NCBI GenBank assembly: GCA_001799675.1
Contig: MGTX01000006.1
Span: forward strand, 44,316-108,315
Source of the DNA: Elusimicrobia bacterium GWA2_66_18
GTDB taxonomy: Bacteria; Elusimicrobiota; Elusimicrobia; UBA1565; UBA9628
DNA: 64,000 bases
Reading direction: 5' to 3'
The position numbers and the translations under genes were made by a program. The notes beneath the pieces were generated by a model that did no database searches, had not been told where the DNA came from, and was given only the letters and a program-made list of their open reading frames with translations. Positions 1,853-60,857 of this stretch are shown piece by piece (position 1 is the first letter of the stretch; every line of letters begins with the position of its first letter).

Positions 1853-3367
1853 ATGACGGCATTATTGCTCGTTGCGACGGCGCTGATTTATATCCGCAGC
1901 GGCTACGTCCCCTCGCCGGGGGAATTCGGCATACTTGTGGAGCGCGCTTATCGCGTGGCCAGCGGCGAGATGATCTACCGTGATTTTGAGACCTTCACCA
2001 CGCCGTTGTCCTATTATCTTCAAGCCGTGCCGTTGCGCCTCTTTGGACCGACGCTCGGCATGGTGCGCGGTTATATCGCGCTCCAGGGCGCGCTGATGAC
2101 GTGGCTTTGTTTTGCGGTCTTGCGCAAGTCGTTGGGGCTGGGGCGAGTGGAAAGCGCGCTGGCCGCCGCTTTTGGTTTTCTGTGGTCGTCGCAATGGCTG
2201 ACCGGGATGCCTTGGTATAGCTCGGACGCCTACGCTTTTATCATGGCGGCGACCGCGGCGCTGCTCTTTGTGCGGCACGATCATTATGAGCGTGGAAAAT
2301 CTTTTTTCATCGGTCTGTGCTGCGCGCTGACGTTTTTGTGTAAACAAGACCTTGGCGCCGCGGCGTTGATCCTGGGACTTCCTTTGTTGGCGGCGGCCGG
2401 CGGCCGCGCCGCGATGGCCTCGCGGGCGTGCTTCTACGTGGCCGGTGCGCTGCTTCCGTTTGCGGCCTTTGCCGCCTGGCTGAGCTGCTACGGCGTGCTG
2501 GGGACCTCGTACTGGTGGATCGTTGAGCGTGCCCTATCCTATCGCGTCGCCACCAGCGGCGCCAGTCTCATTGACCGCACGCTGAAAGCAGTTCTGGGCG
2601 CGGAGAATTGCGTCGGCAAGTTGCTTCTGTTGGTTTACTGGTTTGGCGCCGCGCTGTCATGGAGGCGCGCCGCCGTCGCCGCTCTCCCGCAGCGTGCCGT
2701 TTATCGGCGCAGCGCCTGCGCCGCCGCCTTCCTCGGCGGAATCTATTTCGTGGGGTTGATCAGCTACAATTCCGCGGGATTCTCATTGCTTCAGGAGGGC
2801 GTGGGATGCGCGCTGGGGATCGCCTGGGCCGCGGTAAAACCGCGGGGGCCGATGGGCCCATTCGCGAAGGTCTGCGCCGTAGCCGGAGCGCTGACCGTAT
2901 CGGCGTTGGCCCTCAGAAGCTTCAATTATATGTTCTATAGCCATCCGCCGCCGGCCTTCGAAAAATTGGAAGGCGCGGAGTTTTCCTCAACGAGCTTTCC
3001 GCGTGTAATGGCGCGGCGCATCAGCGCTGTCACGGCTTTCATCGGCGGTCGCATCCCGCCGGACGAACCAGTGCTGCTGTTGCCGCCAGAGGCGTTTCCC
3101 GCGGTTTATCTGGCCGTCAGACGACTGCCGCCTCTGCCTTTGACTGCGTTTTCCGAGACCATCAACCGTTTTCGGGACCAGGATCAGAAGCGCTGGATCG
3201 CCGTGTTGCAGAGACGGCGCCTGCATTGGGCGATCATTGCGCCGGGGTCGCTGCCGGAGGGCTTCTTGACCGATCAGCCGCTCGGCCGCTTCCTCGCAGA
3301 GAACTTCGAGCGGGTAGCCGATGCCGGGCCGGATGTTCTGATGTTGCGGCGCAGTCCTTTTCATTAA
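1853..3367 (+). CDS. polytopic membrane protein, PMT/ArnT-like (GT39/GT83-type) glycosyltransferase family candidate
   Basis: Internal Met (MTALLLVATALIYIRSGY...) of ORF 1571..3367; ~11 predicted hydrophobic helices, aromatic-rich first loop (YRDFETFTTPLSYY); upstream part of the ORF is Arg/Pro-rich and was judged non-coding. Confidence 0.5.
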   Translation: MTALLLVATALIYIRSGYVPSPGEFGILVERAYRVASGEMIYRDFETFTTPLSYYLQAVPLRLFGPTLGMVRGYIALQGALMTWLCFAVLRKSLGLGRVESALAAAFGFLWSSQWLTGMPWYSSDAYAFIMAATAALLFVRHDHYERGKSFFIGLCCALTFLCKQDLGAAALILGLPLLAAAGGRAAMASRACFYVAGALLPFAAFAAWLSCYGVLGTSYWWIVERALSYRVATSGASLIDRTLKAVLGAENCVGKLLLLVYWFGAALSWRRAAVAALPQRAVYRRSACAAAFLGGIYFVGLISYNSAGFSLLQEGVGCALGIAWAAVKPRGPMGPFAKVCAVAGALTVSALALRSFNYMFYSHPPPAFEKLEGAEFSSTSFPRVMARRISAVTAFIGGRIPPDEPVLLLPPEAFPAVYLAVRRLPPLPLTAFSETINRFRDQDQKRWIAVLQRRRLHWAIIAPGSLPEGFLTDQPLGRFLAENFERVADAGPDVLMLRRSPFH

Positions 3368-3410
3368 CAGACTACAAGTCCAGGGCGCGACTCCATAGCA
3401 AGTACGCCGC

Positions 3411-7356
<3,946 letters not shown>

Positions 7357-7364
<8 letters not shown>

Positions 7365-7794
7365 GATGATGGAGCTCCATGCCCAGCGCGGCCATCTCCA
7401 AGGCGGCCAGGGCCGCTTCCTTGCCTCGGTCGAGGCGGCCCCGCGTGCGGGCCAACGCCTGCTTCCAGGTGTCGGGCGTCAGCACGCCCAGGATGACGGG
7501 CACCCGGGCGTCCAGGCTGACGCGGTGCAGGCTTTGCACCAGCGAGCGCGCGATGTGGTCGTTCTGCGGGGTCCGGCCCTTGAGCACGCAGCCGAGCGCC
7601 ACGACCGCCGCGTAGCGGCCGCTCAGAGCCAGTTCCTGGACCGCCCAGGGGAGCTCGTAGCCGCCGGGCACATGCACGACCTTGAGGCGGGAGTCCGTCC
7701 AGCCTTCGCGACGGAAGGTCTTCAGGCAGCTCTCCAAGAGGCGGGAGGTGACCTCCTCGTTGAAGCGCGAGACGACGATCGCGACCTTCTTCAT
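7357..7794 (-). CDS. ribH: 6,7-dimethyl-8-ribityllumazine synthase RibH
   Basis: Internal start MKKVAIVVSRFNEEVTSRLL... of ORF 7357..8904; ~146 aa lumazine synthase fold; ATG overlaps ribBA stop. Confidence 0.9.
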
Positions 7795-9032
7795 CGACGT
7801 TCCTCCAGGCCCTCGAGCCAGTGTCCCATCTTCTCCTTCTTGGCGCGCAGGTAGCGCGCCGCGTGCTTCGGCGCGGGGACCTGCAGGGGCACGCGCTCGA
7901 CGACCTTGAGCCCGTAGCCCTCGATGCCGACGATCTTGCGGGGGTTGTTGGTCAGGATGCGGAAGGAGGTCAGGCCTTGGTCGGCCAGAATCTGCGCGCC
8001 GATGCCGTACTCGCGCAGGTCGGGCTTGAGGCCCAGCTTCAGGTTCGCCTCGACCGTGTCGAGGCCCTTGTCCTGGAGGGCGTAGGCGCGGATCTTGTCG
8101 ATGAGGCCGATGTCTCGCCCTTCCTGGTTGAGGTAGACCAGCACGCCCTTGCCCGCCGCCGCGATCTGCTTGAGCGCGGCCTCCAGCTGGCGGCCGCAGT
8201 CGCACTTCTCCGAGAAGAGGGCGTCGCCCGTCACGCAGGAGGAGTGCACGCGCACGAGCGCGCTCTTCCGCCTCGCCACGTCGCCCATGACCAGGGCGAG
8301 GTGGACCTTGCCGGTGAGGGTCTCCTCGTAGACGCGGATGATGAAGTCCCCGTACTTGGTGGGCAGGCGCGCGCTCGCCCTGCGCGTCACGAGGCGGTCC
8401 TTGCGGCGGCGGTGCTCGATGAGGTCGGCGATGGTGATGATGCGCAGGCCGTGCTTGCGGGCGAAGCGCGCGAGTTCCCGCGTGCGCGCCATGGTCCCGT
8501 CGGCGTTGAGGATCTCGCAGATGACGCCGGCGGGGGTGAGCCCCGCCAGGCGCGCCAGGTCCACGGCGGCCTCGGTGTGCCCGGCGCGGACCAGGACGCC
8601 GCCCTCCTTGGCCCGCAGGGGGAAGACGTGGCCGGGACGCACGAGGTCCTCGGGGCGGGAGCGGGGGTGGATGAGGGCCGCGATGGTGGCCGCGCGGTCC
8701 TTGGCGGAGATGCCCGTGGTGGTGCCCCTCTTGGCGTCCACGGAGACGGAAAAGGCGGTGTCGCGGCCGGGCCCGGGGCCATGCGGCTGGGTCGCGTCCA
8801 CCATGGGGTGGAGCCGGAGAGCGTCCAGGCGCGGCGCGGGCAGGGGAACGCAGATCAGGCCCCGGGCGTGGACGGCCATGAAGTTGACGGCCTTCACGCC
8901 GCACTTCTCGGCGGCGATGACGATGTCGCCTTCGTTCTCCCGATCCGGGTCGTCGACGACCACCACCATGCGTCCTTTGCGGACGTCGGCGACGGCGTCC
9001 TCGATGCGGTCGAATCCCTTGGCGGGCTTCAT
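7791..9032 (-). CDS. ribBA: bifunctional 3,4-dihydroxy-2-butanone-4-phosphate synthase / GTP cyclohydrolase II RibBA
   Basis: Internal start MKPAKGFDRIEDAVADV...; DHBP synthase motifs (RENEGDIV, GHTEA) then GTP cyclohydrolase II motifs (CDCG, zinc Cys triad). Confidence 0.92.
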   Translation of the reverse strand: MKPAKGFDRIEDAVADVRKGRMVVVVDDPDRENEGDIVIAAEKCGVKAVNFMAVHARGLICVPLPAPRLDALRLHPMVDATQPHGPGPGRDTAFSVSVDAKRGTTTGISAKDRAATIAALIHPRSRPEDLVRPGHVFPLRAKEGGVLVRAGHTEAAVDLARLAGLTPAGVICEILNADGTMARTRELARFARKHGLRIITIADLIEHRRRKDRLVTRRASARLPTKYGDFIIRVYEETLTGKVHLALVMGDVARRKSALVRVHSSCVTGDALFSEKCDCGRQLEAALKQIAAAGKGVLVYLNQEGRDIGLIDKIRAYALQDKGLDTVEANLKLGLKPDLREYGIGAQILADQGLTSFRILTNNPRKIVGIEGYGLKVVERVPLQVPAPKHAARYLRAKKEKMGHWLEGLEERR

Positions 9033-9616
9033 CTCTTGGTCCTCAGGGCGGCGACGGCGGCCCGGGCGTAGCGGGCCAAGGGGTCCGCCTCCAGATTGAC
9101 GCGATCTCCCGGGCGGCGGCATCCCAGCGTGGTGTTCTTGAGGGTGTGAGGCACCAGCATCACCTCGAACCAGGCCGGCCGCGCGGCCGTGACGGTGAGG
9201 CTGGTCCCGTCGATGGCAATGGAGCCTTTCCGCGCGATCAAGCCGCGCAGGGCTTTGGGCCGTTCCACCCGCAGACGCCGGAAGCCTTCGGCCCAGGTCT
9301 CGTGGACGAGGACCTTCGCGGCCGCGTCCACGTGGCCGGTCACGAAATGTCCGCCCACTTCCGATCCCAATCGCAAGGATGGTTCCATGTTCACCGCTTG
9401 GCCGGTTTTGAGTTCTCCCAGATTCGTCCGGGCCCAAGTGTCCGGCCCGACGTCGAAGCGATGTGTCCCGTTCTTCGTGGCCACGACCGTCAGACAACAG
9501 CCGTTGACCGCGATGGACGCTCCGATCTTCGGCTGGGTGATCTTCGCGCGGATGGCGAGGGTCGTCGCGGTCCGCTTCCCGACGGTTCCCATGACTTCGA
9601 TGATGCCGCTGAACAT
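9029..9616 (-). CDS. ribE: riboflavin synthase alpha subunit RibE
   Basis: MFSGIIEVMGTV... two lumazine-binding repeats (NGCCLTV / DGTSLTV). Confidence 0.88.
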   Translation of the reverse strand: MFSGIIEVMGTVGKRTATTLAIRAKITQPKIGASIAVNGCCLTVVATKNGTHRFDVGPDTWARTNLGELKTGQAVNMEPSLRLGSEVGGHFVTGHVDAAAKVLVHETWAEGFRRLRVERPKALRGLIARKGSIAIDGTSLTVTAARPAWFEVMLVPHTLKNTTLGCRRPGDRVNLEADPLARYARAAVAALRTKR

Positions 9617-34060: not shown

Positions 34061-34731
34061 CCTTCGCCGCCCTCCTGCTCGCGTCCGCGATCTCCTCGGC
34101 GCAGACGGCGGCCGTTTCGACGGGGCCGGCCGCCGCGCAGGCCGGCCCCGGGGTGAAGGCCGAGGCGGAGGCGAAGCTCAAGTTTAAGAATTTGCTCCAC
34201 GCCGTCATCCACCCCGAGGCCAAGGAATGGGAGCCGCTCTCGCTCCAAGCGGGGGGCGACCCCGGCCAAGCCGTGAACGCGGTCGTCCTGCGCCAAGTCA
34301 AGGTGAAGGGCAAGATCAAGGGCGCCTCCGCCAAGGCCCGGGCCTCGGCGCGCCTGGTCCGCTCGAAGGACGACCGCTGGCTCGTCGTCTCGATCTTTCC
34401 CCAGGCCCTGGAGAAGCGGCGCTTCCACCTGGAGGTCCGCTTTCGCGTGGTCGAGGGCTTCATCGAGGACGCGAAGGCCGCGGCCGTCTTCGTCATGGAC
34501 TCCCGCCCCGGCGCCGGCGAGGGCCTCGACTCCTTCGCCCTGCGCGCCGCGGGCGTCGCGTTCCAGGAGGAGTCTCCCGGCTCCGGCCAGGTCCTGGTCT
34601 CGGCCCTGGACCCCCGCCCGGGCAAGACCGCCTTCAACGCCGGCCGGCTCAAGCTGGCCGAGTTCGCCGACGCGGACCTCGGCTTCGTCGACGCGTCCTG
34701 GTCCGTGCGCGGCCTCTCCGCTTCCCCATAA
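34057..34731 (+). CDS. hypothetical exported protein
   Basis: 224 aa, signal-like MTFAALLLASAISSAQTAA; start overlaps valS stop. Confidence 0.45.
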   Translation: MTFAALLLASAISSAQTAAVSTGPAAAQAGPGVKAEAEAKLKFKNLLHAVIHPEAKEWEPLSLQAGGDPGQAVNAVVLRQVKVKGKIKGASAKARASARLVRSKDDRWLVVSIFPQALEKRRFHLEVRFRVVEGFIEDAKAAAVFVMDSRPGAGEGLDSFALRAAGVAFQEESPGSGQVLVSALDPRPGKTAFNAGRLKLAEFADADLGFVDASWSVRGLSASP

Positions 34732-34775
34732 GACTCCTAGACATCGAACTCGACATAGACAACCAACGCTCCTGG

Positions 34776-36008
34776 CTAATCGATGTCGGTCTTTTGGCTC
34801 GCAAGGAGTTTGTGGAGACCGTGCATGGTGACGATCTTGACCCCGTGATGGATATATTCCTCCTTCCCGGCATAGACCAGAGCGGCTCCGCGACTCTTGG
34901 GAAACACCTTGGCGTAATGGAGGAGGCCCTTGAAGTAGTCGCTCGCGACCGTGGCCCCGGCTTTGACCTCGATCGGCAAGGCGTCGCTCCCGCGGCCATA
35001 TAACAGGTCCACCTCGTTGCCGACGTTGTCTCGGTAGAATGCCAACTGGCTGCGTTGCCCCCGATGGAGGCGATGCTTGAGCGCTTCGGCCACCACGAGG
35101 TTCTCAAACAAGCCCCCGCGCAGCGGATCGCGGGCGACTTGATTCTCGTTCTCCAGCCCCAGGAGGCTACAGGCCAACCCCGTATCGTAGAAGTAAAGCT
35201 TGGGCGTCTTGACCAAACGCTTGCGAACGTTGGCGTGGTGCGGCTCCAGGAGGAATACGATGTACCCGGCTTGAAGCAATGTGATCCAGGCTCGTGCCGT
35301 GGTGTGAGACACGCCTGCGTCGCTGCCCAGCGAATGAAGATTCAGCAATCCCCCGACCCGGCCGGCGCACAGCCGTACGAATCGCTCAAAGAGGTTCAAG
35401 TCTTTCACGGATACCAGTTGGCGCAGGTCCCGCTCGATGCAGGTTTCCATATAGTCGCCGTAGAATCTCGCGGGCTCCAAGCTCTCCCTGTGGAGACGCG
35501 GATAGAACCCGGCCAGCATCAAGCGATCTATGGAAACGTTTTGGAGATCATGCGGCATTTCATCGAGGCTCAAGGGTAGCAATTTCAAGACCGCCGTCCG
35601 CCCGGCCAGGGACTGGCTGATGCGCGTCATGACCTCGAACTGCTGGCTGCCGGTCAGGATAAATAGGCCGTTGCGGCGCTCGCTATCCACCACTTCCTGC
35701 AAGTAGGACGCCAGTTGCGGCGCGCGTTGGATTTCGTCAAGGATCGCTCCATCCGGAATACCCGCCAGGAAACCCCGGGGGTCTTCGGTCGCAAGCCTTC
35801 GCGTATCCGGATTTTCGAGATTGACATAGGCCTTGAGAGGAAACGCCCGCCGGCACAAGGTCGTCTTTCCGCTCTGTCGCGGCCCGGTCATCGTCAGGAC
35901 CGGGTACTGCTTTGCCAATGAGATAAGGAGCGGCTCCAGTGTATTTACATTTTGCAAGTATAACTTTCCAATTGCAATATTTACGGAAGTGGCCGGGCCC
36001 CTTTCCAT
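34776..36008 (-). CDS. AAA-family ATPase with DUF4143-type C-terminal domain (AAA_14/DUF4143 ATP-binding protein)
   Basis: 410 aa; Walker A TGPRQSGKTTL, Walker B FILDEIQ; GC ~58%, clearly below flanks. Confidence 0.75.
   Translation of the reverse strand: MERGPATSVNIAIGKLYLQNVNTLEPLLISLAKQYPVLTMTGPRQSGKTTLCRRAFPLKAYVNLENPDTRRLATEDPRGFLAGIPDGAILDEIQRAPQLASYLQEVVDSERRNGLFILTGSQQFEVMTRISQSLAGRTAVLKLLPLSLDEMPHDLQNVSIDRLMLAGFYPRLHRESLEPARFYGDYMETCIERDLRQLVSVKDLNLFERFVRLCAGRVGGLLNLHSLGSDAGVSHTTARAWITLLQAGYIVFLLEPHHANVRKRLVKTPKLYFYDTGLACSLLGLENENQVARDPLRGGLFENLVVAEALKHRLHRGQRSQLAFYRDNVGNEVDLLYGRGSDALPIEVKAGATVASDYFKGLLHYAKVFPKSRGAALVYAGKEEYIHHGVKIVTMHGLHKLLASQKTDID

Positions 36009-50949: not shown

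Positions 50950-50953
<4 letters not shown>
50582..50953 (+). CDS. DUF192-family protein
   Basis: 123 aa with ...GLWIVPCPMIHTFFMKFPIDVLFLD... typical DUF192 core. Confidence 0.55.
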
Positions 50954-54327
<3,374 letters not shown>

Positions 54328-54331
<4 letters not shown>

Positions 54332-55425
54332 CCATGGGCGACACGAACGCGCTGGAGACGAACGTCGACCTGGCCCTCGAGCTGTTCTCGATCGCGGGCT
54401 CCCTGAACTCGACGCTGGACCTGGACTTCCTCCTGCAGAAGATCGGGACCGCCGCCGAGCAGTTGACCGAGTCGGAGGCGAGCTCCATCATGCTCGTCAC
54501 CGACGACAAGAAGCACCTCTTCTTTCGCGTCGCGACGGGCGAGAAGGCCAAGGCCTTGAAGACCATGGTCCTGCCCATGGGCCAGGGCATCGCGGGCTGG
54601 GTGGCGCAGCACCGCCAGCCCCAGTTGGTCAACGACACGAAGACGGACGAGCGCTTCGCGGGCAAGTTCGACAAGGCCTCGGGATTTACGACCCGCTCGC
54701 TGCTGTGCGTGCCGATGATCTTCCGCGGGGAGTTGGTCGGGGTCGTGGAGGTGCTCAACAAGAAACAGGGCGGCTATACCGAGGCGCACGTCGGCCTGCT
54801 CTCGAGCTTGGCGAGTCTCGCCTCCGTCGCCATCACGAACACGAAGATCATCGCGGAGCAGAAGAACTTCTTTTCCCACGTGCTGGAGCTCCTCGTGGGC
54901 GTCGTCGAGACGATGAAGCCCGGCTACGAGGGCTATCCCGTCCGCGCGGCCAAGCTCGCCTGCGAGATCGGCCGGGCTCTGGGCGTGGATGATTACGACT
55001 ACCGGATGCTCTATTACGCCGGCATCCTGCACAAGATCGGCTATGTGGCCTTCAAGAACCCGCGCATGCTGGCCGACATGGGCGTCAGGTCCGCTCCCGA
55101 GGAGATGCTGCCCAGCTTCTCGGCGCGCCTGCTCACGGGCATCAAGATGATCGAGGGCGCCCTCCCCGCGATCCGCCATCACAAGGAACGCTTCGACGGC
55201 TCGGGCTATCCGGGCAAACTCGAGGGCGAGGCCATCCCTCTGGGCGGACGCATCCTGCGCCTGGTCTCGGACATGGAGGGACTGCGCATCTCCGGGGGCC
55301 TCAAGGGCGCGGAGTTGGGCGCGCGGGCGCTCAGGGAGGCCCAGGCGGGCGCGGGCAAGACCTATGACCCGAAGGTCGTGGAGGCCTTCGCGGCCGTCCT
55401 GGAGTCTCAAGGAGGAAGTTGGTGA
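54328..55425 (+). CDS. GAF-domain + HD-GYP-domain protein (HD-GYP metal-site residues apparently degenerate)
   Basis: Internal start MTMGDTNALETN...; GAF core (QGIAGWVAQHRQPQLVND); HD-GYP: GYPVRAAKLA (expected GHS.RVA), ILHKIGY (expected HD), HHKERFDGSGYPG retained. Confidence 0.75.
55411..55417 (+). promoter_or_regulatory. Shine-Dalgarno (AGGAGGA) for B12-binding subunit gene
   Basis: ctcaaggaggaagttggtgATGgac. Confidence 0.5.
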
Positions 55426-55826
55426 TGGACAAACCTTTCCGCATCCTCATCGCAAAGCCGGGTCTTGACGGCCACGACCGCGGGGCGAAGGTCATCGTGC
55501 GCGCCCTGCGCGACGCGGGCTTCGAGGTCATCTACACCGGCATCCGCCAGACGCCGGAGATGATCGCGACGGCGGCCATGCAGGAGGACGTGGACGCCGT
55601 GGGGCTTTCGCTCTTGTCGGGGGCGCATCTGACGCTTTTCCCGGAGATCTGCCGGCACCTCAAGAAGAAGGGCCTCAAGACGGTCCTGGTCTTCGGCGGC
55701 GGCATCATCCCCGACGAGGACGCGGCCGCGCTCCGGAAGGCCGGCATCGACCGCGTCTTCGGCCCCGGCACGCCGCTGCAAACCATCGTGGACTATCTCA
55801 AAGAGAAGCTCCCGGTTGCGCGTTAG
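55425..55826 (+). CDS. methylmalonyl-CoA mutase-family small subunit, B12(cobalamin)-binding domain
   Basis: MDKPFRILIAKPGLDGHDRGAKVI (DxHxxG B12-binding motif), ~133 aa Rossmann-like. Confidence 0.85.
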   Translation: MDKPFRILIAKPGLDGHDRGAKVIVRALRDAGFEVIYTGIRQTPEMIATAAMQEDVDAVGLSLLSGAHLTLFPEICRHLKKKGLKTVLVFGGGIIPDEDAAALRKAGIDRVFGPGTPLQTIVDYLKEKLPVAR

Positions 55827-56763
55827 CAACGACCCGAAGGACCTCATCAAACGCGTGCGCCGAGGCGATCACGCCGCGGCCTCGCGCGCCCTCTCGCTCG
55901 TCGTCGACGAGAACGCCGCCGGCGAGCCCCTCGCCAGGGACTTCTTTAAGTCGGCCGGCACGGTCCAGAAGGTCGGCGTCTGCGGACCTCCGGGCGCGGG
56001 CAAATCCACGCTCACCGGCCGGCTGATCGGGCATTACCGCTCTCTCAAACGCAAGGTCGGCGTGCTGGCCGTCGATCCCAGTTCCTCCATTTCGGGCGGC
56101 GCTTTTCTAGGGGACCGCCTGCGCATCATGGAGCACGCGACCGACCCCGGGGTATTCATCCGCTCGCTGGCTTCGCGCGGGATGATCGGGGGTCTGACCC
56201 ACACCATCTTCGGCGCCATCCACGTCCTGGAGGCTTTGGGCTGCGACAAGATCATCGTCGAGACCGTGGGCACCGGCCAGGACGAGGTCGACATCGCCTC
56301 GGTCGTCGACACCGTCCTCTATGTCACGACGCCCGCCATGGGCGACGAGATCCAGGCGATGAAGGCCGGCGCGATGGAGGTCGGAGACGTCTTCGTCGTC
56401 AATAAGGCCGACTTGGCCGGCAAGGACAAGGCCGTCGGCGACCTCAAAGGCGCCTTGGCGCTCGGGCACGGCGCGGGGCAGGCCGTCAAGGCCTGGGAGT
56501 CGCCGGTGGTCGCGACCGCCGCCCTTTCGGGCGAGGGAGTGGCGCAACTCGCCAAGCTTGTCGATGAGCATTGGACGCATCTCAAGAAGTCGGGCGAGGG
56601 CAGGAAGCGGCTCAAGAGGCAGCATGCCACCGAGCTTCAGTTCTGGGTCCACCGCCACGTCGTCAAGAACGCCCTCGGCCGGGTCACCGACAAGGACCTT
56701 GATGACATGGTGACGCGTAAGACCGACCCGGCGACGCTGGGGCGGAAGTTGCTGCAAAGTTGA
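55816..56763 (+). CDS. meaB: methylmalonyl-CoA mutase-associated G-protein chaperone MeaB (ArgK family), probable TTG start
   Basis: GVCGPPGAGKSTL (P-loop), VETVGTGQ, NKAD; start overlaps B12 subunit stop. Confidence 0.88.
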   Translation: MRVSNDPKDLIKRVRRGDHAAASRALSLVVDENAAGEPLARDFFKSAGTVQKVGVCGPPGAGKSTLTGRLIGHYRSLKRKVGVLAVDPSSSISGGAFLGDRLRIMEHATDPGVFIRSLASRGMIGGLTHTIFGAIHVLEALGCDKIIVETVGTGQDEVDIASVVDTVLYVTTPAMGDEIQAMKAGAMEVGDVFVVNKADLAGKDKAVGDLKGALALGHGAGQAVKAWESPVVATAALSGEGVAQLAKLVDEHWTHLKKSGEGRKRLKRQHATELQFWVHRHVVKNALGRVTDKDLDDMVTRKTDPATLGRKLLQS

Positions 56764-56782
56764 TTCGGACTGGAGATTTCCC

Positions 56783-57187
56783 ATGGGGAATAAGCCCGTT
56801 ACGTCGACGCGCTCGTCAGAAATGATGCGAACTCTTTATGGTCCATCCTATGCCAAAGATGTGTTCCGCCGCCTTGAATGCCTCGACCCTGAACTCAACA
56901 AGATAATCCAGGAAATTCCTTATGATGCTTTCTGGTCGCGCGAAGGGCTGAATCTACGCGATAAAAGCCTGATAACGGTCGCGGCATTGATCGCCATGGG
57001 CAAAGAAGAGCAGACCAAGATTCACATGCGGGGATTTCTTCACTCCGGCGGCACAGTGTCCGAGATTCGGAATATGCTGATCCATCTTGCCGTCTATTGC
57101 GGTTTTCCGGCCGTCATGAACGGCTTTGCTGCTCTTAGAGATGTCTTGCCCCTGATACCGACAGGCCGGAAGAAGACACGCCGATGA
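56783..57187 (+). CDS. carboxymuconolactone decarboxylase (CMD/AhpD-like) family protein
   Basis: 134 aa; ...REGLNLRDKSLITVAALIAMGKEEQTKIHMRGFLHSGGTVSEIRNMLIHLAVYCGFPAV (CMD helix pattern); GC ~50%. Confidence 0.65.
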   Translation: MGNKPVTSTRSSEMMRTLYGPSYAKDVFRRLECLDPELNKIIQEIPYDAFWSREGLNLRDKSLITVAALIAMGKEEQTKIHMRGFLHSGGTVSEIRNMLIHLAVYCGFPAVMNGFAALRDVLPLIPTGRKKTRR

Positions 57188-58887
57188 TATGGAGGCATTG
57201 GTCGAAGCATGTTCTCATCCTGTCGCTGACGTTTATCGCCCTGCTTTTCCTATTTTCCAGCGGATATGCTTACTTGAAGTTCCGGGACGACCTTATTCAC
57301 GCGCAGTTGGCCAACCAGCAGAAAATGACTCGAATCGTCAACCAATCGCTCAACCTTTATTTCGACAAATTGAGGTTTGCAGTCGAGGTCACCGTGCTAC
57401 AGACGGCCTTCCGCCCAGATGTCAACAGGGGTGAAGATGCAATCCGCTACGAACAGCCGCGCGTGGCAATATCCAAGACATCGCTTGCCTTTCAGGGTAT
57501 TGCGAAGGTGCTGGAAAATCCGCGCAAAGCCGTCGATCCAGCGGACTCCCTCAAGCGTCTGCGTAATTGGCAGATTTATAAAGCGCTTCCGGAGGTGGAC
57601 TTGCGCGGCGAGATCATCGCCAGGCTCCGCCGAGTTCTTGCGAGAAACATTCTAAGAACGTTCAAGGATGTCCATTACGTCTTTGAAATGGATATCAACG
57701 GCGATTTGGTTTTTCTGGAGCCTTTTGAGATTCAAAAGAACATTTCGAGTTTTAATTATGAGTTTCGCGACTATTTGCAACTTGTAAAAGCGTGCCGCTC
57801 CAGTGTGATAGTGGAGTTCAAGCGCCTGGTCTCAAACCTCGTCAACAACGCGGTCGAGGCCTTCGGCGACGGTCACGGTTCGGTGAACATCGGTCTCGCC
57901 TCCAGCGGCGGGTGCGCCCTGGTGAGCGTGCAGGATAACGGCAAGGGCATCCCTCCCGATGTGCTGGCCAAGCTCGGACGCCGCGGCGAGACCCATGGCA
58001 AAGCCGGGGGCTCGGGGTTGGGGCTCTATCATGCCCAGACCAGCGCCGAATCATGGGGCGGAAGCCTGGAGATTGCCTCTGAAGTCGGCAAGGGAACAAC
58101 GACCACAGTGATCCTGCCCCTGTCCCCCGCGCCGGAGTGGTTCGTGCCGGAGCTTCGGCTTACGCCCGGCAAGGTCGTGGTGATCTTGGATGACGATGCG
58201 AGCATACACCAGGTCTGGCAGGGACGGCTTGACGCCTTGAAGGCGGGCGGGCGAGGCGTCGAGGTCGTTCATGTTTCGACGCCGGATGAGACACGGGGCT
58301 GGGTCAAGGGTGAGGGGGCCAAGGCGCGGCAGGCGCTGTACCTGTTCGACTACGAACTGCTGGGCTATCACGAGACGGGACTGAGCCTGGCCGAGGAGCT
58401 TGCCCTCGGTGATCGCGTGGTCCTAGTGACGAGCCGCTACGATGAACCGAAAGTGTTGGAAGGCTGTCGGAGGCTCAAGGCACGTCTGATCCCCAAGGGA
58501 CTGGCGGGGTCGGTACCGATGCACATGGCGGCGGCGGTGGAGACTCCCGAAAGGGAGCGGCTCGACGCGGTGCTCATCGACGACGATGCATTGGCTCGAA
58601 TGAACTGGAAGATGGCGGCCAAGAGGGTGGGGAAGTCCTTTAAAGCGTATGCGGACGCGGCGTCCTTCCTGGCCGAACTGGACGCGGGCGCTATTTCCAC
58701 GGATACGCCCATCTATATCGACTCAAACCTCGCCGATGGAGTCAAGGGCGAAGACGTGGCGCGGGAGATCAGTCGCCGGGGTTTTGCCGAGATTCGACTG
58801 GCGACGGGTCATGAGCCCTCATCGTTTCCCGTGATGCCGCACATCCGCGAGGTTGTCGGAAAAACGCCGCCGTGGGATGCGGTGTGA
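57184..58887 (+). CDS. sensor histidine-kinase-like protein: TM + periplasmic sensor region, HATPase_c domain without recognisable HisKA/H-box, followed by two receiver-like domains
   Basis: N-box LVSNLVNNAVEAF, G1 VQDNGKGIP, G2 GGSGLGLYHAQ, GKGTTTTVILPL; REC-like KVVVILDDDASIH...FDYELL...LVTSRYDEPK and AVLIDDDALARM...IYIDSNL...RLATGHEP; no H-E-x-x-x-P box upstream of N-box; GC switches from ~48% to ~68% near 57820. Confidence 0.65.
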   Translation: MIWRHWSKHVLILSLTFIALLFLFSSGYAYLKFRDDLIHAQLANQQKMTRIVNQSLNLYFDKLRFAVEVTVLQTAFRPDVNRGEDAIRYEQPRVAISKTSLAFQGIAKVLENPRKAVDPADSLKRLRNWQIYKALPEVDLRGEIIARLRRVLARNILRTFKDVHYVFEMDINGDLVFLEPFEIQKNISSFNYEFRDYLQLVKACRSSVIVEFKRLVSNLVNNAVEAFGDGHGSVNIGLASSGGCALVSVQDNGKGIPPDVLAKLGRRGETHGKAGGSGLGLYHAQTSAESWGGSLEIASEVGKGTTTTVILPLSPAPEWFVPELRLTPGKVVVILDDDASIHQVWQGRLDALKAGGRGVEVVHVSTPDETRGWVKGEGAKARQALYLFDYELLGYHETGLSLAEELALGDRVVLVTSRYDEPKVLEGCRRLKARLIPKGLAGSVPMHMAAAVETPERERLDAVLIDDDALARMNWKMAAKRVGKSFKAYADAASFLAELDAGAISTDTPIYIDSNLADGVKGEDVAREISRRGFAEIRLATGHEPSSFPVMPHIREVVGKTPPWDAV

Positions 58888-58894
58888 GATTCCC

Positions 58895-59293
58895 ATGATG
58901 AGACTCCACCACGTCGGCGTGGCCGTGACGAATCTCAACGAAGCGATTGCGCGTTACGAACGCATGGGTCTGAGGCTTGCGCATAGAGAGGTCGTCGCGT
59001 CTCAGGAGGTCGAGGTGGCATTCGTGGGCGAGGGACCGTTCGTGGAGCTTCTGGCGGGGACCTCGGCCGATTCGCCCGTCTCCAAGTTCGTGGTGAAGAA
59101 AGGTCCGGGCCAGCATCACCTCGCTTTCGCCGTGCCGAGCATCGCGGAAGAACTGAAGCGCCAGGCCGCGGCGGGCGCCAAACTCATCGACCGGGTCGCG
59201 CGGCCGGGAGCGTGGGGGCGCCAGGTCGCTTTCCTGCATCCCGAGAACCAAGGCGGGGTGCTCGTCGAACTGGTGGAGGATCATGCCGGATAA
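58895..59293 (+). CDS. mce: methylmalonyl-CoA epimerase (VOC/glyoxalase-fold)
   Basis: MMRLHHVGVAVTNLNEAIARYERMGL...GQHHLAFAV... typical epimerase VOC motifs; cluster context. Confidence 0.75.
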   Translation: MMRLHHVGVAVTNLNEAIARYERMGLRLAHREVVASQEVEVAFVGEGPFVELLAGTSADSPVSKFVVKKGPGQHHLAFAVPSIAEELKRQAAAGAKLIDRVARPGAWGRQVAFLHPENQGGVLVELVEDHAG

Positions 59294-60857
59294 GAAAACG
59301 AAGCGCCCGCTCATCTCCTCGAAGACGCGGCGGATGCTCGACAAACGCGCCCTCGCCGAGGCGGGGGGCGGTCCCGAGCGTCTGGCGGCGCAGAAGGCGT
59401 CGGGCAAGATGGCGGCGCGCGAGCGCATCGACATGCTCGTCGACGACGACAGCTTCGAGGAAGTCGACGCCTTGGTCGAGACGAAGTCGACGGATTTCGG
59501 CCTGGACAAGAAGTACCTGGCGGCCGACGGGGTGGTGACGGGTTTCGCCCGCATTAATGGCCGCCTCGTCTGCATTTATTCCCAGGATTTCACGGTCATG
59601 GGGGGCTCGCTCGGCCTGGCCCACGCCATGAAGATCTGCAAGGTGATGGACATGGCGGTGACCGCCGGCGTGCCCGTCATCGGCCTGTGCGACTCGGGCG
59701 GCGCGCGCATCCAGGAGGGCGTGGAGAGCCTGGGCGGCTACGCGGAGATCTTCTATCGGAACGTCCGCGCCTCCGGCTTCGTCCCTCAGATTTCCGCCAT
59801 TCTCGGACCTTGCGCGGGAGGGGCGGTGTATTCACCCGCCCTGACCGATTTCATCATCATGGTCGACGGGACCAGCCACATGTTCATCACGGGCCCCGGG
59901 GTGGTCAAGGCCGCCACGGGCGAGACCTGCGATTTCGAGAGCCTAGGCGGGGCCGACACGCACAGTCGCCTTTCGGGGGTGGCCCAATTCGTGGCGGGCA
60001 GCGAGCAGGACTGCTTCCGCCAGATCCGGGAGTTGCTCGACTACCTCCCGCAGAACTGCCGCGAGACCGCCAAGCCGAACATGGCCGGCGACGATCCCCT
60101 GCGCGAGAGCGCGACGTTGGAGCGCGTCAGCGAGCTCGAAGCCAAGAAATCCTATCAGGTCCACGCGGTCGTCTGGGAGATCGCCGACGGCCACCAGTTC
60201 TTCGAGGTCCACAAGAACTTCGCGCGCAACATCGTCTGCGGCTTCATCCGCCTCGACGGCGAGTCCGTGGGCGTGGTCGCAAACAATCCCCAGGTGCTCT
60301 CCGGCGCGCTCGACATCGACGCATCGGAGAAGGGCGCGCGTTTCATCAACTTTTGCGATGCCTTCAATATTCCGCTCCTGACGCTGGTCGACGTGCCGGG
60401 CTACTGGCCGGGCCTGGAGCAAGAGCACGGCGGCATCATCCGACGCGGCGCCAAGCTCCTCTACGCCTACTGCCGCGCCTCAGTGCCCCTCGTGACCGTC
60501 GTTTTGAGGAAGGCTTACGGCGGGGCCTACGACGTGATGAGCTCCAAGCACATCCGCGGCGACATCAACTTCGCCTGGCCCTGCGCCGAGATCGCCGTCA
60601 TGGGCCCTCAGGGCGCGGTCAATATCCTTTATAAGACGGAGCTGGCCAAGGCAGCCGACCCCGAGAAGCGCCGGGCCGAATTGGTGCGTGAGTATGTCGC
60701 GAAGTTCGCCTCGCCCTTCCAGGCCGCCAAGCACGGCTACATCGACGAAGTCATCGAGGCGCGCAAGACCCGCCCGAAGGTCATCCGGGCGTTCCGATTC
60801 CTGAAGGGCAAGAAGGTTGAACCGTTGCCCAAGAAGCACGGCAACATCCCCTTATAG
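59283..60857 (+). CDS. carboxyltransferase subunit of the propionyl-CoA carboxylase beta / methylmalonyl-CoA decarboxylase alpha / transcarboxylase 12S family
   Basis: 524 aa; crotonase-fold carboxyltransferase halves (...FTVMGGSLG..., ...AYGGAYDVM...). Confidence 0.88.

What the first reader, a model, noticed from the sequence alone, without database searches (positions are those of the whole stretch)
56783..58887. Lower-GC insert carrying a CMD-family gene and the 5' half of a histidine-kinase-like gene that lacks an H-box (mosaic pseudo-kinase with two receiver domains)
GC content drops from ~68% to ~48-50% at about 56780 and returns to ~68% near 57820, which is inside the 57184..58887 ORF. 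The low-GC part encodes a CMD/AhpD-like protein and the TM plus sensor-like N-terminal portion of the next protein. The high-GC part encodes a complete HATPase_c (N, G1, G2 boxes) and two receiver-like domains. The junction falls exactly where the HisKA dimerisation/phosphoacceptor domain should be, and no H-E-x-x-x-P-type box is present. This looks like a recombination-generated chimera in which foreign DNA replaced the original sensor and H-box. The product could be a pseudo-kinase, or a kinase that phosphorylates in trans or uses an unorthodox site. It is embedded in the propionate cluster immediately before mce and the carboxyltransferase.
Basis: seen in the sequence. Interest (0 to 1): 0.65.

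Follow-up and report, generated by a model that had tools for sequence, protein, structure and literature searches.

The report
Chimeric kinase remnant inserted in operon
A 2.1-kb piece of acquired DNA sits inside a conserved propionate-metabolism operon of one groundwater Elusimicrobia lineage; it carries an intact small enzyme gene and a sensor-kinase gene stitched from two parents that has lost its phosphorylation site, so it is most likely a recent recombination leftover, not a new kind of signalling protein.

Summary
GC falls from about 0.67 to about 0.50 over roughly 56,780-57,810 (GC3 0.59-0.61 against 0.87-0.92 in flanking genes), and this is the lowest-GC kilobase in the window. The 567-aa ORF has one TM segment, a complete HATPase_c, two receiver-like domains and no H-box. 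The gene is a true chimera. Codons 1-209, like the upstream CMD gene, are closest to a CMD + dCache-kinase module from a ~50% GC Elusimicrobia lineage (N-part clade 91% bootstrap). Codons 210-567 group with high-GC paralogues that carry other sensors (100%). The join is out of register but in frame. It removes about 340 residues that all ~35 relatives keep: most of the Cache domain, TM2 and the DHp helix with the "QVAHDIRSPLAAL" H-box. However, no resident kinase was remodelled. In about 15 related genomes meaB abuts mce directly, so the whole 2.1 kb is a lineage-specific insertion, bounded by a 12/13-nt direct repeat. Neither half shows decay, and the form is a singleton, so the event looks recent. 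A second, independent H-box-less chimera (P0026) exists in the family and is also a singleton. Best reading: a kinase-dead by-product of sensor-module exchange. Interest is low to moderate.

The parts
55816..56763 (+). meaB (methylmalonyl-CoA mutase-associated GTPase). It is the upstream flank of the insertion. In relatives its stop codon overlaps or abuts the mce start.
   Evidence: Pfam MeaB E=6e-78; synteny in L006-L023 and L031.
56773..56785 (+). Left copy of the flanking direct repeat, GAGATTTCCCATG. Its ATG is the CMD start codon.
   Evidence: these are the only two matches (one edit allowed) in the 64-kb window on either strand, and they lie exactly at the two ends of the insert. My rough estimate of chance placement is about 0.002.
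56783..57187 (+). Intact CMD-family gene (134 aa, PcaC-like but not an equivalog). It is the low-GC partner gene of the Cache-kinase module.
   Evidence: PF02627 E=1e-17 over model positions 1-84/84. TIGR02425 scores 71.7 bits against a cut-off of 155.7. It is 80% identical to the CMD upstream of P0003 in L004. A CMD gene lies directly upstream of all 4 full-length Cache-type members checked. GC 0.52, GC3 0.585.
57184..57810 (+). Kinase ORF codons 1-209, the low-GC N-part. It comprises TM1 (residues 6-31, 57199-57276) and the first ~180 residues of a dCache-type periplasmic sensor, truncated before the core of the domain.
   Evidence: It aligns to residues 1-209 of the ~900-aa dCache kinases (P0003 64%, P0002 52%). 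In relatives the Pfam dCache_1 match runs to about residue 289. GC 0.49, GC3 0.61. There is one TM segment where relatives have two. The (window, P0003) clade has 91% bootstrap.
57803..57813 (+). Chimeric junction (codons S207-V210). It is an out-of-register, in-frame join with at most 2-3 nt of microhomology, and it is also the GC switch point.
   Evidence: blastn: similarity to L004 ends at 57,802 and similarity to the P0006 gene (L066) starts at 57,811. Codon-level comparison with parental proxies. A 343-column gap in alignment A3.
57811..58887 (+). Kinase ORF codons 210-567, the higher-GC C-part. It comprises HATPase_c (residues 211-314, 57814-58125), receiver-like domain 1 (about 326-448, 58159-58527) and receiver-like domain 2 (about 458-567, 58555-58884).
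   Evidence: It is 77-78% identical at protein level to P0006 (same-genome paralogue) and P0004, and 77.7% at nucleotide level to the P0006 gene. The clade with high-GC members that carry other sensors has 100% bootstrap. All catalytic and receiver signature residues are kept, and only 1 of 113 conserved positions is changed. AlphaFold pLDDT 90.8; best PDB match is ShkA.
58886..58897 (+). Right copy of the flanking direct repeat, GAGATTCCCATG. It overlaps the kinase stop codon, and its ATG is the start of mce.
58895..59293 (+). mce (methylmalonyl-CoA epimerase, glyoxalase fold). It is the downstream flank, now 7 nt after the kinase stop instead of coupled to meaB.
   Evidence: Pfam Glyoxalase_4 E=1e-18; gene calls in L001-L003; synteny.

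Best explanation
The region is a recent, lineage-specific 2.1-kb insertion into the translationally coupled meaB|mce junction of an otherwise strictly conserved Elusimicrobia methylmalonyl-CoA operon. Its cargo is a damaged copy of a two-gene signalling module that is common in Elusimicrobia. In that module a CMD-family gene is followed by a hybrid sensor kinase with the layout TM1 - dCache - TM2 - DHp (H-box) - CA - REC - REC. Here the CMD gene and the first 209 kinase codons derive from a lineage of about 50% GC. They are joined by illegitimate recombination, out of register but in frame, to the last 358 codons (CA-REC-REC) of a paralogue typical of high-GC Elusimicrobia. The join removes two-thirds of the Cache domain, TM2 and the whole DHp helix with the phospho-acceptor His. 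The product therefore cannot dimerise or autophosphorylate in the canonical way. If TM1 inserts as in the parent, its ATPase and receiver domains would face the periplasm. I infer that it is a kinase-dead by-product of the sensor-module exchange that shapes this family, and that it is still intact because it is young. In addition, an uninterrupted, tightly spaced ORF keeps translation running through the insert to mce and the carboxyltransferase. The CMD gene may still be expressed and functional. Shown: the insertion, the chimerism, the missing domains and the lack of decay. Inferred: the loss of kinase function, the recency, and the polarity argument.
For: Insertion: meaB directly abuts mce in about 15 related genomes, and none has CMD or a kinase there. 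The surrounding gene order is conserved in 17 lineages. A 12/13-nt direct repeat sits at both ends. Module: a CMD gene lies immediately upstream of all four full-length Cache-type kinases checked, in unrelated contexts. Chimerism: N-part (window, P0003) 91% bootstrap; C-part clade with P0002, P0004, P0006, P0009 and P0011 100% bootstrap; identity reversal (N-part 64% to P0003 vs 52% to P0002; C-part 50% to P0003 vs 69% to P0002 and 77-78% to P0006/P0004); GC3 0.61 vs 0.77. Missing segment: 320-355 residues separate the two parts in all ~35 relatives and 0 in the window. A clean 343-column gap covers TM2 and QVAHDIRSPLAAL. 112 of 120 family members have the H-box 108-125 residues before the N box; six of the others are fragments and two are complete but lack it, the window protein and P0026. 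Relatives give HisKA hits exactly in the missing region. The window protein has one TM segment where relatives have two. Illegitimate join: at most 2-3 nt of microhomology. Recency and singleton status: identical sequence in all assemblies; no other protein with this architecture among 1.84 billion representatives or; no decay in the C-part (1 of 113) or the N-part (1 substitution in 38). By-product reading: an independent second case, P0026, has different breakpoints, the same GC3 step and singleton status. Operon continuity: no terminator or promoter predicted, and gene spacings are 19 nt, a 4-nt overlap, and 7 nt.
Against: The ORF is intact and in frame. It retains every family-invariant residue of the ATP-binding site and both receiver pockets, which is also what a functional protein would show. 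Two independent in-frame H-box-less chimeras in one family is more than expected if such products were quickly lost. Membrane orientation of TM1 is only weakly specified by flanking charges, so a cytoplasmic location of the C-part is not excluded. There are no expression, polymorphism or dN/dS data, because all assemblies are one population. The direct donors of either half are not in the databases (best N-part match 64%, best C-part match 78-85%), so where the chimera was assembled is unknown.
Confidence: 0.68

Rival explanations
1. Functional H-box-less pseudo-kinase. The membrane-anchored CA-REC-REC protein is maintained by selection, for example as a phosphate sink or decoy phosphorylated in trans by paralogous kinases whose receivers are ~77% identical to its own. 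Alternatively it could be an ATP- or ligand-binding adaptor. It would be co-expressed with the methylmalonyl-CoA operon and might link it to a signalling network.
For: The ORF is intact and in frame. All N/G1/G2 residues and both receivers' Asp/Thr/Lys residues are conserved, with 1 of 113 conserved positions changed. The C-part fold is predicted with confidence. Spacing is operon-compatible and no terminator is predicted. A second independent H-box-less family member exists (P0026). From my own knowledge, not checked here: isolated CA domains can phosphorylate DHp domains in trans in vitro (EnvZ two-domain reconstitution).
Against: Both H-box-less forms are singletons with no orthologues sharing the junction. 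The breakpoints differ between the two cases, so no common architecture is being selected. TM2 is lost, so the parental topology would export the C-part. The Cache fragment is too short to be a domain and gets no confident fold (pLDDT 28-46, shallow alignment). Un-ameliorated codon usage and zero decay in the certainly useless Cache fragment show that lack of decay here reflects youth, not selection.
Confidence: 0.15
2. A full-length high-GC paralogue was first inserted between meaB and mce in a recent ancestor. Incoming low-GC DNA (CMD plus the 5' end of a kinase) later replaced its 5' half, including the sensor and H-box.
For: The C-part has host-like composition (GC3 0.77, against 0.78 for the same-genome paralogue P0006) and groups with that paralogue. 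The meaB|mce junction has accepted unrelated inserts in at least four other lineages, so two successive events at this site are conceivable.
Against: No sampled relative has a kinase at this site, including L006 with 86% MeaB identity. The single pair of direct repeats bounding the whole block is simpler to explain by one insertion of an already chimeric fragment.
Confidence: 0.12
3. Single donor, no chimera. A complete CMD + Cache-kinase module from one foreign genome was inserted and then suffered a ~1-kb internal in-frame deletion. The GC step would be intrinsic to the gene.
For: Intact relatives also have a C-part about 8 GC points richer than the N-part (L004 0.44 to 0.51; L005 0.54 to 0.62). 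Both halves belong to the same architecture.
Against: The window's step is about 15 points. The N-part and C-part have strongly supported, conflicting nearest relatives. The closest C-part relatives carry 7TMR-DISM or other sensors, not Cache. However, mosaicism is common in the family (for example P0002), so a donor that was already mosaic in register cannot be ruled out.
Confidence: 0.04
4. Metagenome assembly artefact: a chimeric contig joining reads from a low-GC and a high-GC organism.
For: The window is from a MAG. The join lies inside a multi-copy gene family. All recovered copies come from one population.
Against: The identical 567-aa gene, with the same flanks, is found on six contigs of the collection, of which three assemblies from different sources (ENA, NCBI, JGI) were compared; NCBI also names it in the MAG GWC2_65_9. 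The junction joins non-homologous positions with at most 3 nt in common, so no shared k-mer could mislead an assembler. An artefact would need three false joins, all placed precisely at gene boundaries and in frame. Both flanks are collinear with the conserved operon.
Confidence: 0.01

Closest known systems
Elusimicrobia CMD + dCache hybrid kinase module (e.g. P0003 in GCA_016209025.1 and P0002; unnamed family)
   Same: The CMD partner gene with a 4-bp overlap, TM1, the first 209 residues of the sensor, and the CA-REC-REC C-terminus are all homologous and collinear.
   Different: The window gene lacks the central ~340 residues (the rest of dCache, TM2, DHp with the H-box). Its two halves come from different branches of the family.
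ShkA of Caulobacter crescentus (PDB 6qrj; DHp-CA-REC1-REC2 hybrid kinase activated by c-di-GMP binding to the pseudo-receiver REC1; PMC6969517, PMC7010744)
   Same: It is the best structural match of the C-part and covers CA plus both receiver-like domains (E=4e-12, 377 columns). The tandem-receiver layout after the CA domain is the same.
   Different: ShkA is cytosolic, has a DHp with the phospho-acceptor His, and its REC1 is a pseudo-receiver. In the window protein both receivers keep the acidic pocket, Asp, Thr/Ser and Lys, and the DHp is absent. Sequence identity is only 20%, so this is a layout resemblance and not evidence of orthology.
Pseudo-histidine kinases such as DivL (PDB 4q20 is among the CA-domain hits)
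   Same: A histidine-kinase-like protein with an intact CA domain but no phospho-acceptor His.
   Different: DivL keeps the DHp fold (Tyr replaces His; my own knowledge), is conserved and has a known partner. Here the whole DHp is deleted and the protein is a singleton.
Small horizontally acquired islets and illegitimate (microhomology-mediated) integration of foreign DNA; sensor-domain shuffling in lineage-specific kinase expansions (general knowledge, not checked in the literature here)
   Same: Atypical composition, absence from syntenic loci of relatives, short flanking direct repeat, a junction with 2-3 nt of microhomology, and transmitter modules that cluster by host while sensors cluster by type.
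   Different: The insert carries no integrase, transposase or tRNA. It lies inside an operon at a translational-coupling junction, with ORF-exact boundaries.
4-carboxymuconolactone decarboxylase PcaC (TIGR02425) / CMD family PF02627
   Same: The upstream 134-aa protein matches the full CMD domain and aligns to PcaC over 108 residues.
   Different: Its score of 71.7 bits is far below the PcaC equivalog cut-off of 155.7. Its conserved pairing with a Cache kinase suggests a signalling-related role that has not been characterised.

Membership tests
Canonical (HisKA-type) sensor histidine kinase | DHp/HisKA dimerisation domain carrying the phospho-acceptor His (H-box) | tested here: not met
   Pfam and NCBIfam give no HisKA-type hit even at E<=1; all NCBIfam kinase matches start at or after residue ~175-215. 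The H-box QVAHDIRSPLAAL of relatives falls in the 343-column gap. The motif is present in 112 of 120 family members and absent here. A MAFFT placement of K108 under the His is a misalignment of the Cache fragment.
Canonical (HisKA-type) sensor histidine kinase | CA (HATPase_c) domain with N, G1 and G2 boxes | tested here: met
   PF02518 E=1.4e-21, residues 211-314. N218, N222, D251, G253, G255, G276, G278 and G280 are invariant. Structural matches to kinase CA domains have rmsd 1.3-2 A.
Canonical (HisKA-type) sensor histidine kinase | ATP-dependent autophosphorylation | not testable with these tools
   This needs biochemistry. It is predicted to be absent because the acceptor domain is missing.
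Elusimicrobia TM-sensor-TM-DHp-CA-REC-REC hybrid kinase family | Homologous CA-REC-REC C-terminus | tested here: met
   60-78% identity over 358 residues to more than 100 members; 100% bootstrap clade.
Elusimicrobia TM-sensor-TM-DHp-CA-REC-REC hybrid kinase family | Second TM segment and an H-box 108-125 residues upstream of the N box | tested here: not met
   One TM segment where relatives have two.
dCache_1 (double PDC) extracellular sensor | Complete double-PDC domain between two TM helices | tested here: not met
   Only the first 209 residues are present. dCache_1 gives no Pfam hit in the window protein but hits P0003 (154-287) and P0002 (39-289). There is no confident fold for residues 36-211 (weak evidence because the alignment is shallow).
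Response-regulator receiver (REC) domain, two copies | (beta-alpha)5 fold with acidic pocket, phospho-acceptor Asp, conserved Thr/Ser and Lys | tested here: met
   D336-338, D389, T416/S417 and K438, and D466-468, D513, T541 and K560, are invariant or nearly so. Secondary structure and pLDDT >90. ShkA alignment over CA+REC1+REC2. REC1 vs REC2 hhalign probability 94.5%. Pfam Response_reg is only sub-threshold (E=0.016). Phosphorylation itself is not testable here.
CMD / AhpD-like family (PF02627) | Full-length CMD domain above the gathering score | tested here: met
   64.3 bits against a cut-off of 23, model positions 1-84/84.
PcaC (4-carboxymuconolactone decarboxylase, TIGR02425 equivalog) | Score above the equivalog cut-off | tested here: not met
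   71.7 bits against a cut-off of 155.7.
Horizontally acquired genomic islet | Atypical composition, absence from the syntenic site in relatives, and flanking direct repeats | tested here: met
   composition; absence in about 19 relatives; 12/13-nt repeat.
Horizontally acquired genomic islet | Mobility genes (integrase or transposase) or a tRNA/att site | tested here: not met
   The insert holds only the CMD and kinase ORFs. No RNA family matches. No tRNA search was run, so a tRNA/att site was not tested.

The most novel reading that the evidence does not exclude
Out-of-register sensor swaps in this Elusimicrobia kinase family repeatedly create membrane-anchored CA-REC-REC proteins without a DHp (the window gene and P0026). 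At least the window copy would then be retained as a working H-box-less pseudo-kinase or phosphate sink. It would be co-transcribed with the methylmalonyl-CoA operon and phosphorylated in trans by paralogous kinases, wiring propionate metabolism into a signalling network.
Probability: 0.1. Interest if true: 0.55.

Novelty: new member of a known kind. Interest (0 to 1): 0.25.

Why it matters
For annotation, this gene should not be called a sensor histidine kinase. It is a fusion product that lacks the phospho-acceptor domain, and the apparent link between a kinase and the propionate cluster is an accident of insertion, not a conserved regulatory arrangement. For evolution, the locus is a clean, datable snapshot of how sensor modules (partner gene plus sensor 5' end) move between lineages and recombine with resident transmitter modules in a large, poorly annotated Elusimicrobia kinase family. 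It also shows the failed, out-of-register products of that process, and an operon junction that repeatedly accepts foreign genes while keeping ORF-exact boundaries. If the minority reading were true, it would be a natural example of a DHp-less kinase derivative put to use.

Tried and rejected
1. A word-indexed homology search with the N-part alone returned one short hit and missed known relatives. I replaced it with the exhaustive phmmer search.
2. The global MAFFT alignment of the full chimera with 35 relatives (A1) forced the Cache fragment under the DHp and put K108 under the His. I rejected this as a misalignment. The Cache-only alignment A3 gives the correct single gap.
I relied instead on the structure model and the ShkA match.
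4. The AlphaFold model of the whole chimera had only 5 sequences. The low confidence of the N-part cannot be separated from the shallow alignment, so I used it only as weak support.
5. dN/dS or polymorphism analysis was impossible. L001 is identical to the window and L003 differs at 5 sites outside the insert. The L002 DNA comparison failed because of an upstream offset, although its protein matches are 100%.
6. The scan of metagenome contigs for the 30-nt junction found nothing. It is uninformative because that collection also failed to return the JGI contig known to carry the gene.
7. Promoter/terminator and Rfam scans of 55,300-59,600 found nothing.
8. I considered treating the GC step alone as proof of two donors and rejected it, because intact relatives show an intrinsic ~8-point step. 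Chimerism rests on the trees instead.
9. Literature searches found no description of this family or locus. They served only to cite ShkA.
Full report
**1. Observation**

The composition anomaly is real.
- In 200-nt windows, GC is 0.65-0.69 upstream, 0.44-0.56 between about 56,750 and 57,850, and 0.60-0.67 afterwards.
- It is a codon-usage effect, not an amino-acid effect. GC3 is 0.585 in the CMD gene and 0.61 in kinase codons 1-209. It is 0.87-0.92 in the flanking meaB, B12-subunit, carboxyltransferase and mdh genes. Kinase codons 210-567 have GC3 0.77.
- The kilobase starting at 56,801 is the lowest in the whole window (0.505; mean 0.668, SD 0.035).

The two ORFs are as described.
- Pfam gives a full-length CMD domain for the first ORF.
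- For the 567-aa ORF it gives only HATPase_c (residues 211-314). There is no HisKA-type, Cache or PAS hit even at E<=1.
- NCBIfam kinase models match only from residue ~175-215 onward.

**2. Source and reality of the sequence**

The protein is 100% identical to a hypothetical protein of the MAG Elusimicrobia bacterium GWC2_65_9. The same gene, with the same flanks, lies on six contigs of the assembly collection, and I compared three assemblies from ENA, NCBI and JGI. L001 is base-for-base identical to the window over 16.8 kb. L003 differs at five positions outside the insert. These assemblies are therefore one population. They argue against an assembler-specific artefact but provide no polymorphism to analyse.

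**3. What the 567-aa ORF is**

Its C-terminal 63% belongs to a large Elusimicrobia family of 640-950-aa kinases (more than 1,100 hits). A few members, P0002 and P0003 among them, also match the N-terminus.
- Residues 1-209 align with residues 1-209 of these ~900-aa dCache_1 proteins: 64% identity to P0003 and 52% to P0002.
- Residues 210-567 align with their residues ~545-903.
- A Cache-only alignment shows one clean 343-column gap between "...KACRSSVI" and "VEFKRLV...". The gap removes the rest of the Cache domain, the second TM helix and the conserved "QVAHDIRSPLAALD" H-box.
- In all ~35 relatives that contain both parts, 320-355 residues separate them. In the window the separation is zero.
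- Relatives give sub-threshold HisKA hits exactly in the missing region.
- Of the best 120 family members, 112 have the H-box 108-125 residues before the N box. Six are N-terminal fragments. Two complete proteins lack it: the window protein and P0026.
- The window protein has one hydrophobic segment (6-31). The Cache-type relatives have a second at about 385-417.
- An exhaustive phmmer scan of 1.84 billion representatives found only 48 clusters with this sensor type. Every complete member is 630-980 aa, except the window protein itself.

**4. The C-terminal part is intact**

- All N, G1 and G2 residues and both receivers' acidic pocket, Asp, Thr/Ser and Lys are present and family-invariant. 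Only one of 113 positions that are >=90% conserved in 41 relatives differs, a conservative E-to-D change.
- With a 42-sequence alignment, AlphaFold gives pLDDT 90.8 and an ATPase domain followed by two (beta-alpha)5 domains.
- The best PDB match is full-length ShkA (6qrj), a DHp-CA-REC1-REC2 hybrid kinase, over 377 columns. The following hits are kinase CA domains. The ShkA architecture is described in PMC6969517 and PMC7010744.
- The two receiver-like domains are homologous to each other.

**5. Chimera or simple deletion?**

GC alone does not decide this. In intact relatives the C-part is already about 8 points richer than the N-part (L004 0.44 to 0.51; L005 0.54 to 0.62). The window's step is 15 points. 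Phylogeny does decide it.
- In neighbour-joining trees with 300 bootstraps, the N-part pairs with P0003 from a ~50% GC contig (91%). P0002 and P0013 are excluded at 97%.
- The C-part falls in a 100%-supported clade with P0002, P0004, P0006, P0009 and P0011.
- Its closest relatives there are P0004 (7TMR-DISM sensor) and P0006, a paralogue from the same genome with a different sensor (85%).
- The CMD gene follows the N-part: 80% identity to the L004 CMD against 54% to L005.

At nucleotide level, similarity to L004 ends at 57,802. Similarity to the P0006 gene (77.7%) begins at 57,811. Comparison with the two parental proxies shows at most 2-3 nt of shared sequence at the join. The join connects positions ~336 codons apart, and it is in frame. 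This is illegitimate recombination.

**6. The module**

All four full-length Cache-type members examined have a CMD gene immediately upstream, with either a 4-bp overlap or 2-10 bp spacing. Their wider neighbourhoods are unrelated to each other. The low-GC segment of the window is thus the 5' portion of a conserved two-gene module. Other sensor types have their own upstream partners: SBP_bac_5 with P0006 and Cupin_5 with P0026.

**7. The locus**

A scan of species-representative genomes with MeaB returned about 19 Elusimicrobia loci.
- In about 15 of them, mce starts 0-12 bp after meaB, typically with an ATGA overlap. None has a CMD or kinase gene there.
- The full gene order DUF192 - mutase - PilB/MshE-like ATPase - GAF-HD - B12 subunit - meaB - mce - carboxyltransferase - mdh is conserved in 17 lineages.
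- Hence the entire 2.1 kb, including the high-GC half of the kinase, is an insertion specific to this lineage. The nearest sampled relative (L006, MeaB 86%) lacks it.
- The insert is bounded by GAGATTTCCCATG (56,773-56,785; the ATG is the CMD start) and GAGATTCCCATG (58,886-58,897; the ATG is the mce start). These are the only two matches in the window on either strand.
- The same junction carries unrelated inserts in other lineages: an AbiJ-like gene at GC 0.46 in L014, a DUF2283 pair at GC 0.50 in L017, DUF6624 in L011 and an unknown ORF in L022. These are also ORF-exact and flanked by a repeated copy of the mce start region.

A two-step history confined to this lineage remains possible.

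**8. Age and function**

- The Cache fragment is certainly not a functional domain, yet it shows no decay: one substitution at 38 conserved positions, within the 0-13 range of intact relatives. The perfect conservation of the C-part therefore reflects youth and cannot be read as selection.
- Codon usage is un-ameliorated, and the architecture is a singleton.
- Without the DHp there is no dimerisation interface and no acceptor His.
- Without TM2, the parental N-in orientation of TM1 would place CA-REC-REC outside the cytoplasm. This is an inference, because the charge bias around TM1 is weak.
- No terminator, promoter or RNA family is predicted in the region. Gene spacing is tight: 19 nt, a 4-nt overlap, then 7 nt.
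- I infer that an uninterrupted ORF is tolerated, and perhaps favoured, because it keeps ribosomes moving through the insert to mce and the carboxyltransferase, whatever the protein itself does.
- The CMD gene is complete and may be functional.

**9. A second case**

P0026 (608 aa; L068) is an independent H-box-less member.
- Residues 1-182 match residues 1-182 of ~837-aa HAMP-type members (73% to P0169).
- Residues 191-598 match P0169 residues 443-837 at only 55%, against 79% to P0017.
- About 260 residues, including TM2, HAMP and "SHDIRSPLAALD", are missing.
- GC3 steps from 0.63-0.68 to 0.83-0.93. The upstream Cupin_5 gene shares the lower GC3.
- The breakpoints differ in both partners from those in the window.
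- It too is a singleton.

The transmitter parts of the family cluster by host lineage while the sensors cluster by type. Together, these results suggest frequent exchange of [partner gene + sensor] modules onto resident transmitters, with occasional out-of-register products. Two in-frame cases keep a small probability alive that such proteins are used.

**10. Verdict**

The feature is a recent, lineage-specific insertion. It carries an intact CMD gene and a chimeric hybrid-kinase gene that lacks the DHp and the H-box. It is most likely a non-functional by-product of recombination. This is a known kind of thing, an acquired islet with a fusion remnant, in a poorly described protein family. Interest is low to moderate.

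Noticed in passing
window ~50,950-55,826 (mutase catalytic subunit, PilB/MshEN-T2SSE ATPase 52,5xx-54,331, GAF+HD_5 54,328-55,425, B12 subunit 55,419-55,826); L006-L022: In all 17 Elusimicrobia lineages with enough upstream DNA, a PilB/MshE-like ATPase (77-93% identical, at least as conserved as the mutase) and a GAF-HD gene separate the catalytic and B12-binding subunits of methylmalonyl-CoA mutase. It is an odd, strictly conserved arrangement that hints at c-di-GMP-type control or a moonlighting ATPase in this operon.
   Followed up: partly
L014 8,925-9,757; L017 ~7,780-8,365; L011 ~3,195-3,850; L022 ~8,940-9,525; L015 2,536-4,066: The meaB|mce coupling junction is a recurrent landing site for unrelated accessory genes in other lineages: AbiJ_NTD4 at GC 0.46, a DUF2283 pair at GC 0.50, DUF6624 and an unknown ORF. 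Each is ORF-exact and flanked by a repeated copy of the mce start region. L015 has an extra ~1.5 kb between the B12 subunit and meaB.
   Followed up: partly
L068 5,486-7,827 (P0026 and the upstream Cupin_5 gene): A second, independent, complete but H-box-less family member. It joins a lower-GC partner gene and 182 codons of a sensor, out of register and in frame, to a high-GC CA-REC-REC. About 260 residues (TM2, HAMP, H-box) are missing, and it is a singleton.
   Followed up: yes
proteins P0002-P0208; loci L004, L005, L066, L068, L069, L070: A large Elusimicrobia-centred family (more than 1,100 hits) of hybrid kinases with two tandem, divergent receiver domains. Pfam does not recognise the receivers, and the HisKA is mostly sub-threshold. 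Sensors are diverse (dCache_1, 7TMR-DISM, HAMP-linked, GAF), and each type has its own tightly coupled upstream partner gene (CMD, SBP_bac_5, Cupin_5). Transmitters cluster by host lineage and sensors by type. Sigma-54 activators lie near the module in L004 and L005.
   Followed up: partly
P0002 (L005 7,170-9,881): P0002 itself looks mosaic, but in register. Its CA and REC1 are 75-78% identical to the window's, while its REC2 is only 56% identical. Its N-part groups with P0013, while its C-part groups with high-GC members. Its CMD partner is a tandem double CMD (218 aa), and the one in L070 is 271 aa.
   Followed up: no
window 35,800-36,000 (and 34,700-35,600): This is the only other noticeable GC dip in the window: 0.51-0.53 over ~200 nt and 0.56-0.61 over ~1 kb. 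Its content was not examined.
   Followed up: no
L066 8,068-8,090 vs window 58,885-58,897: The same-genome paralogue P0006 has TGAGATT 9 nt after its stop codon. This resembles the GAGATT(T)CCCATG repeat at the insert ends. It is a weak hint that the right end of the insert was joined through a 6-7-nt microhomology, and it could be chance.
   Followed up: no
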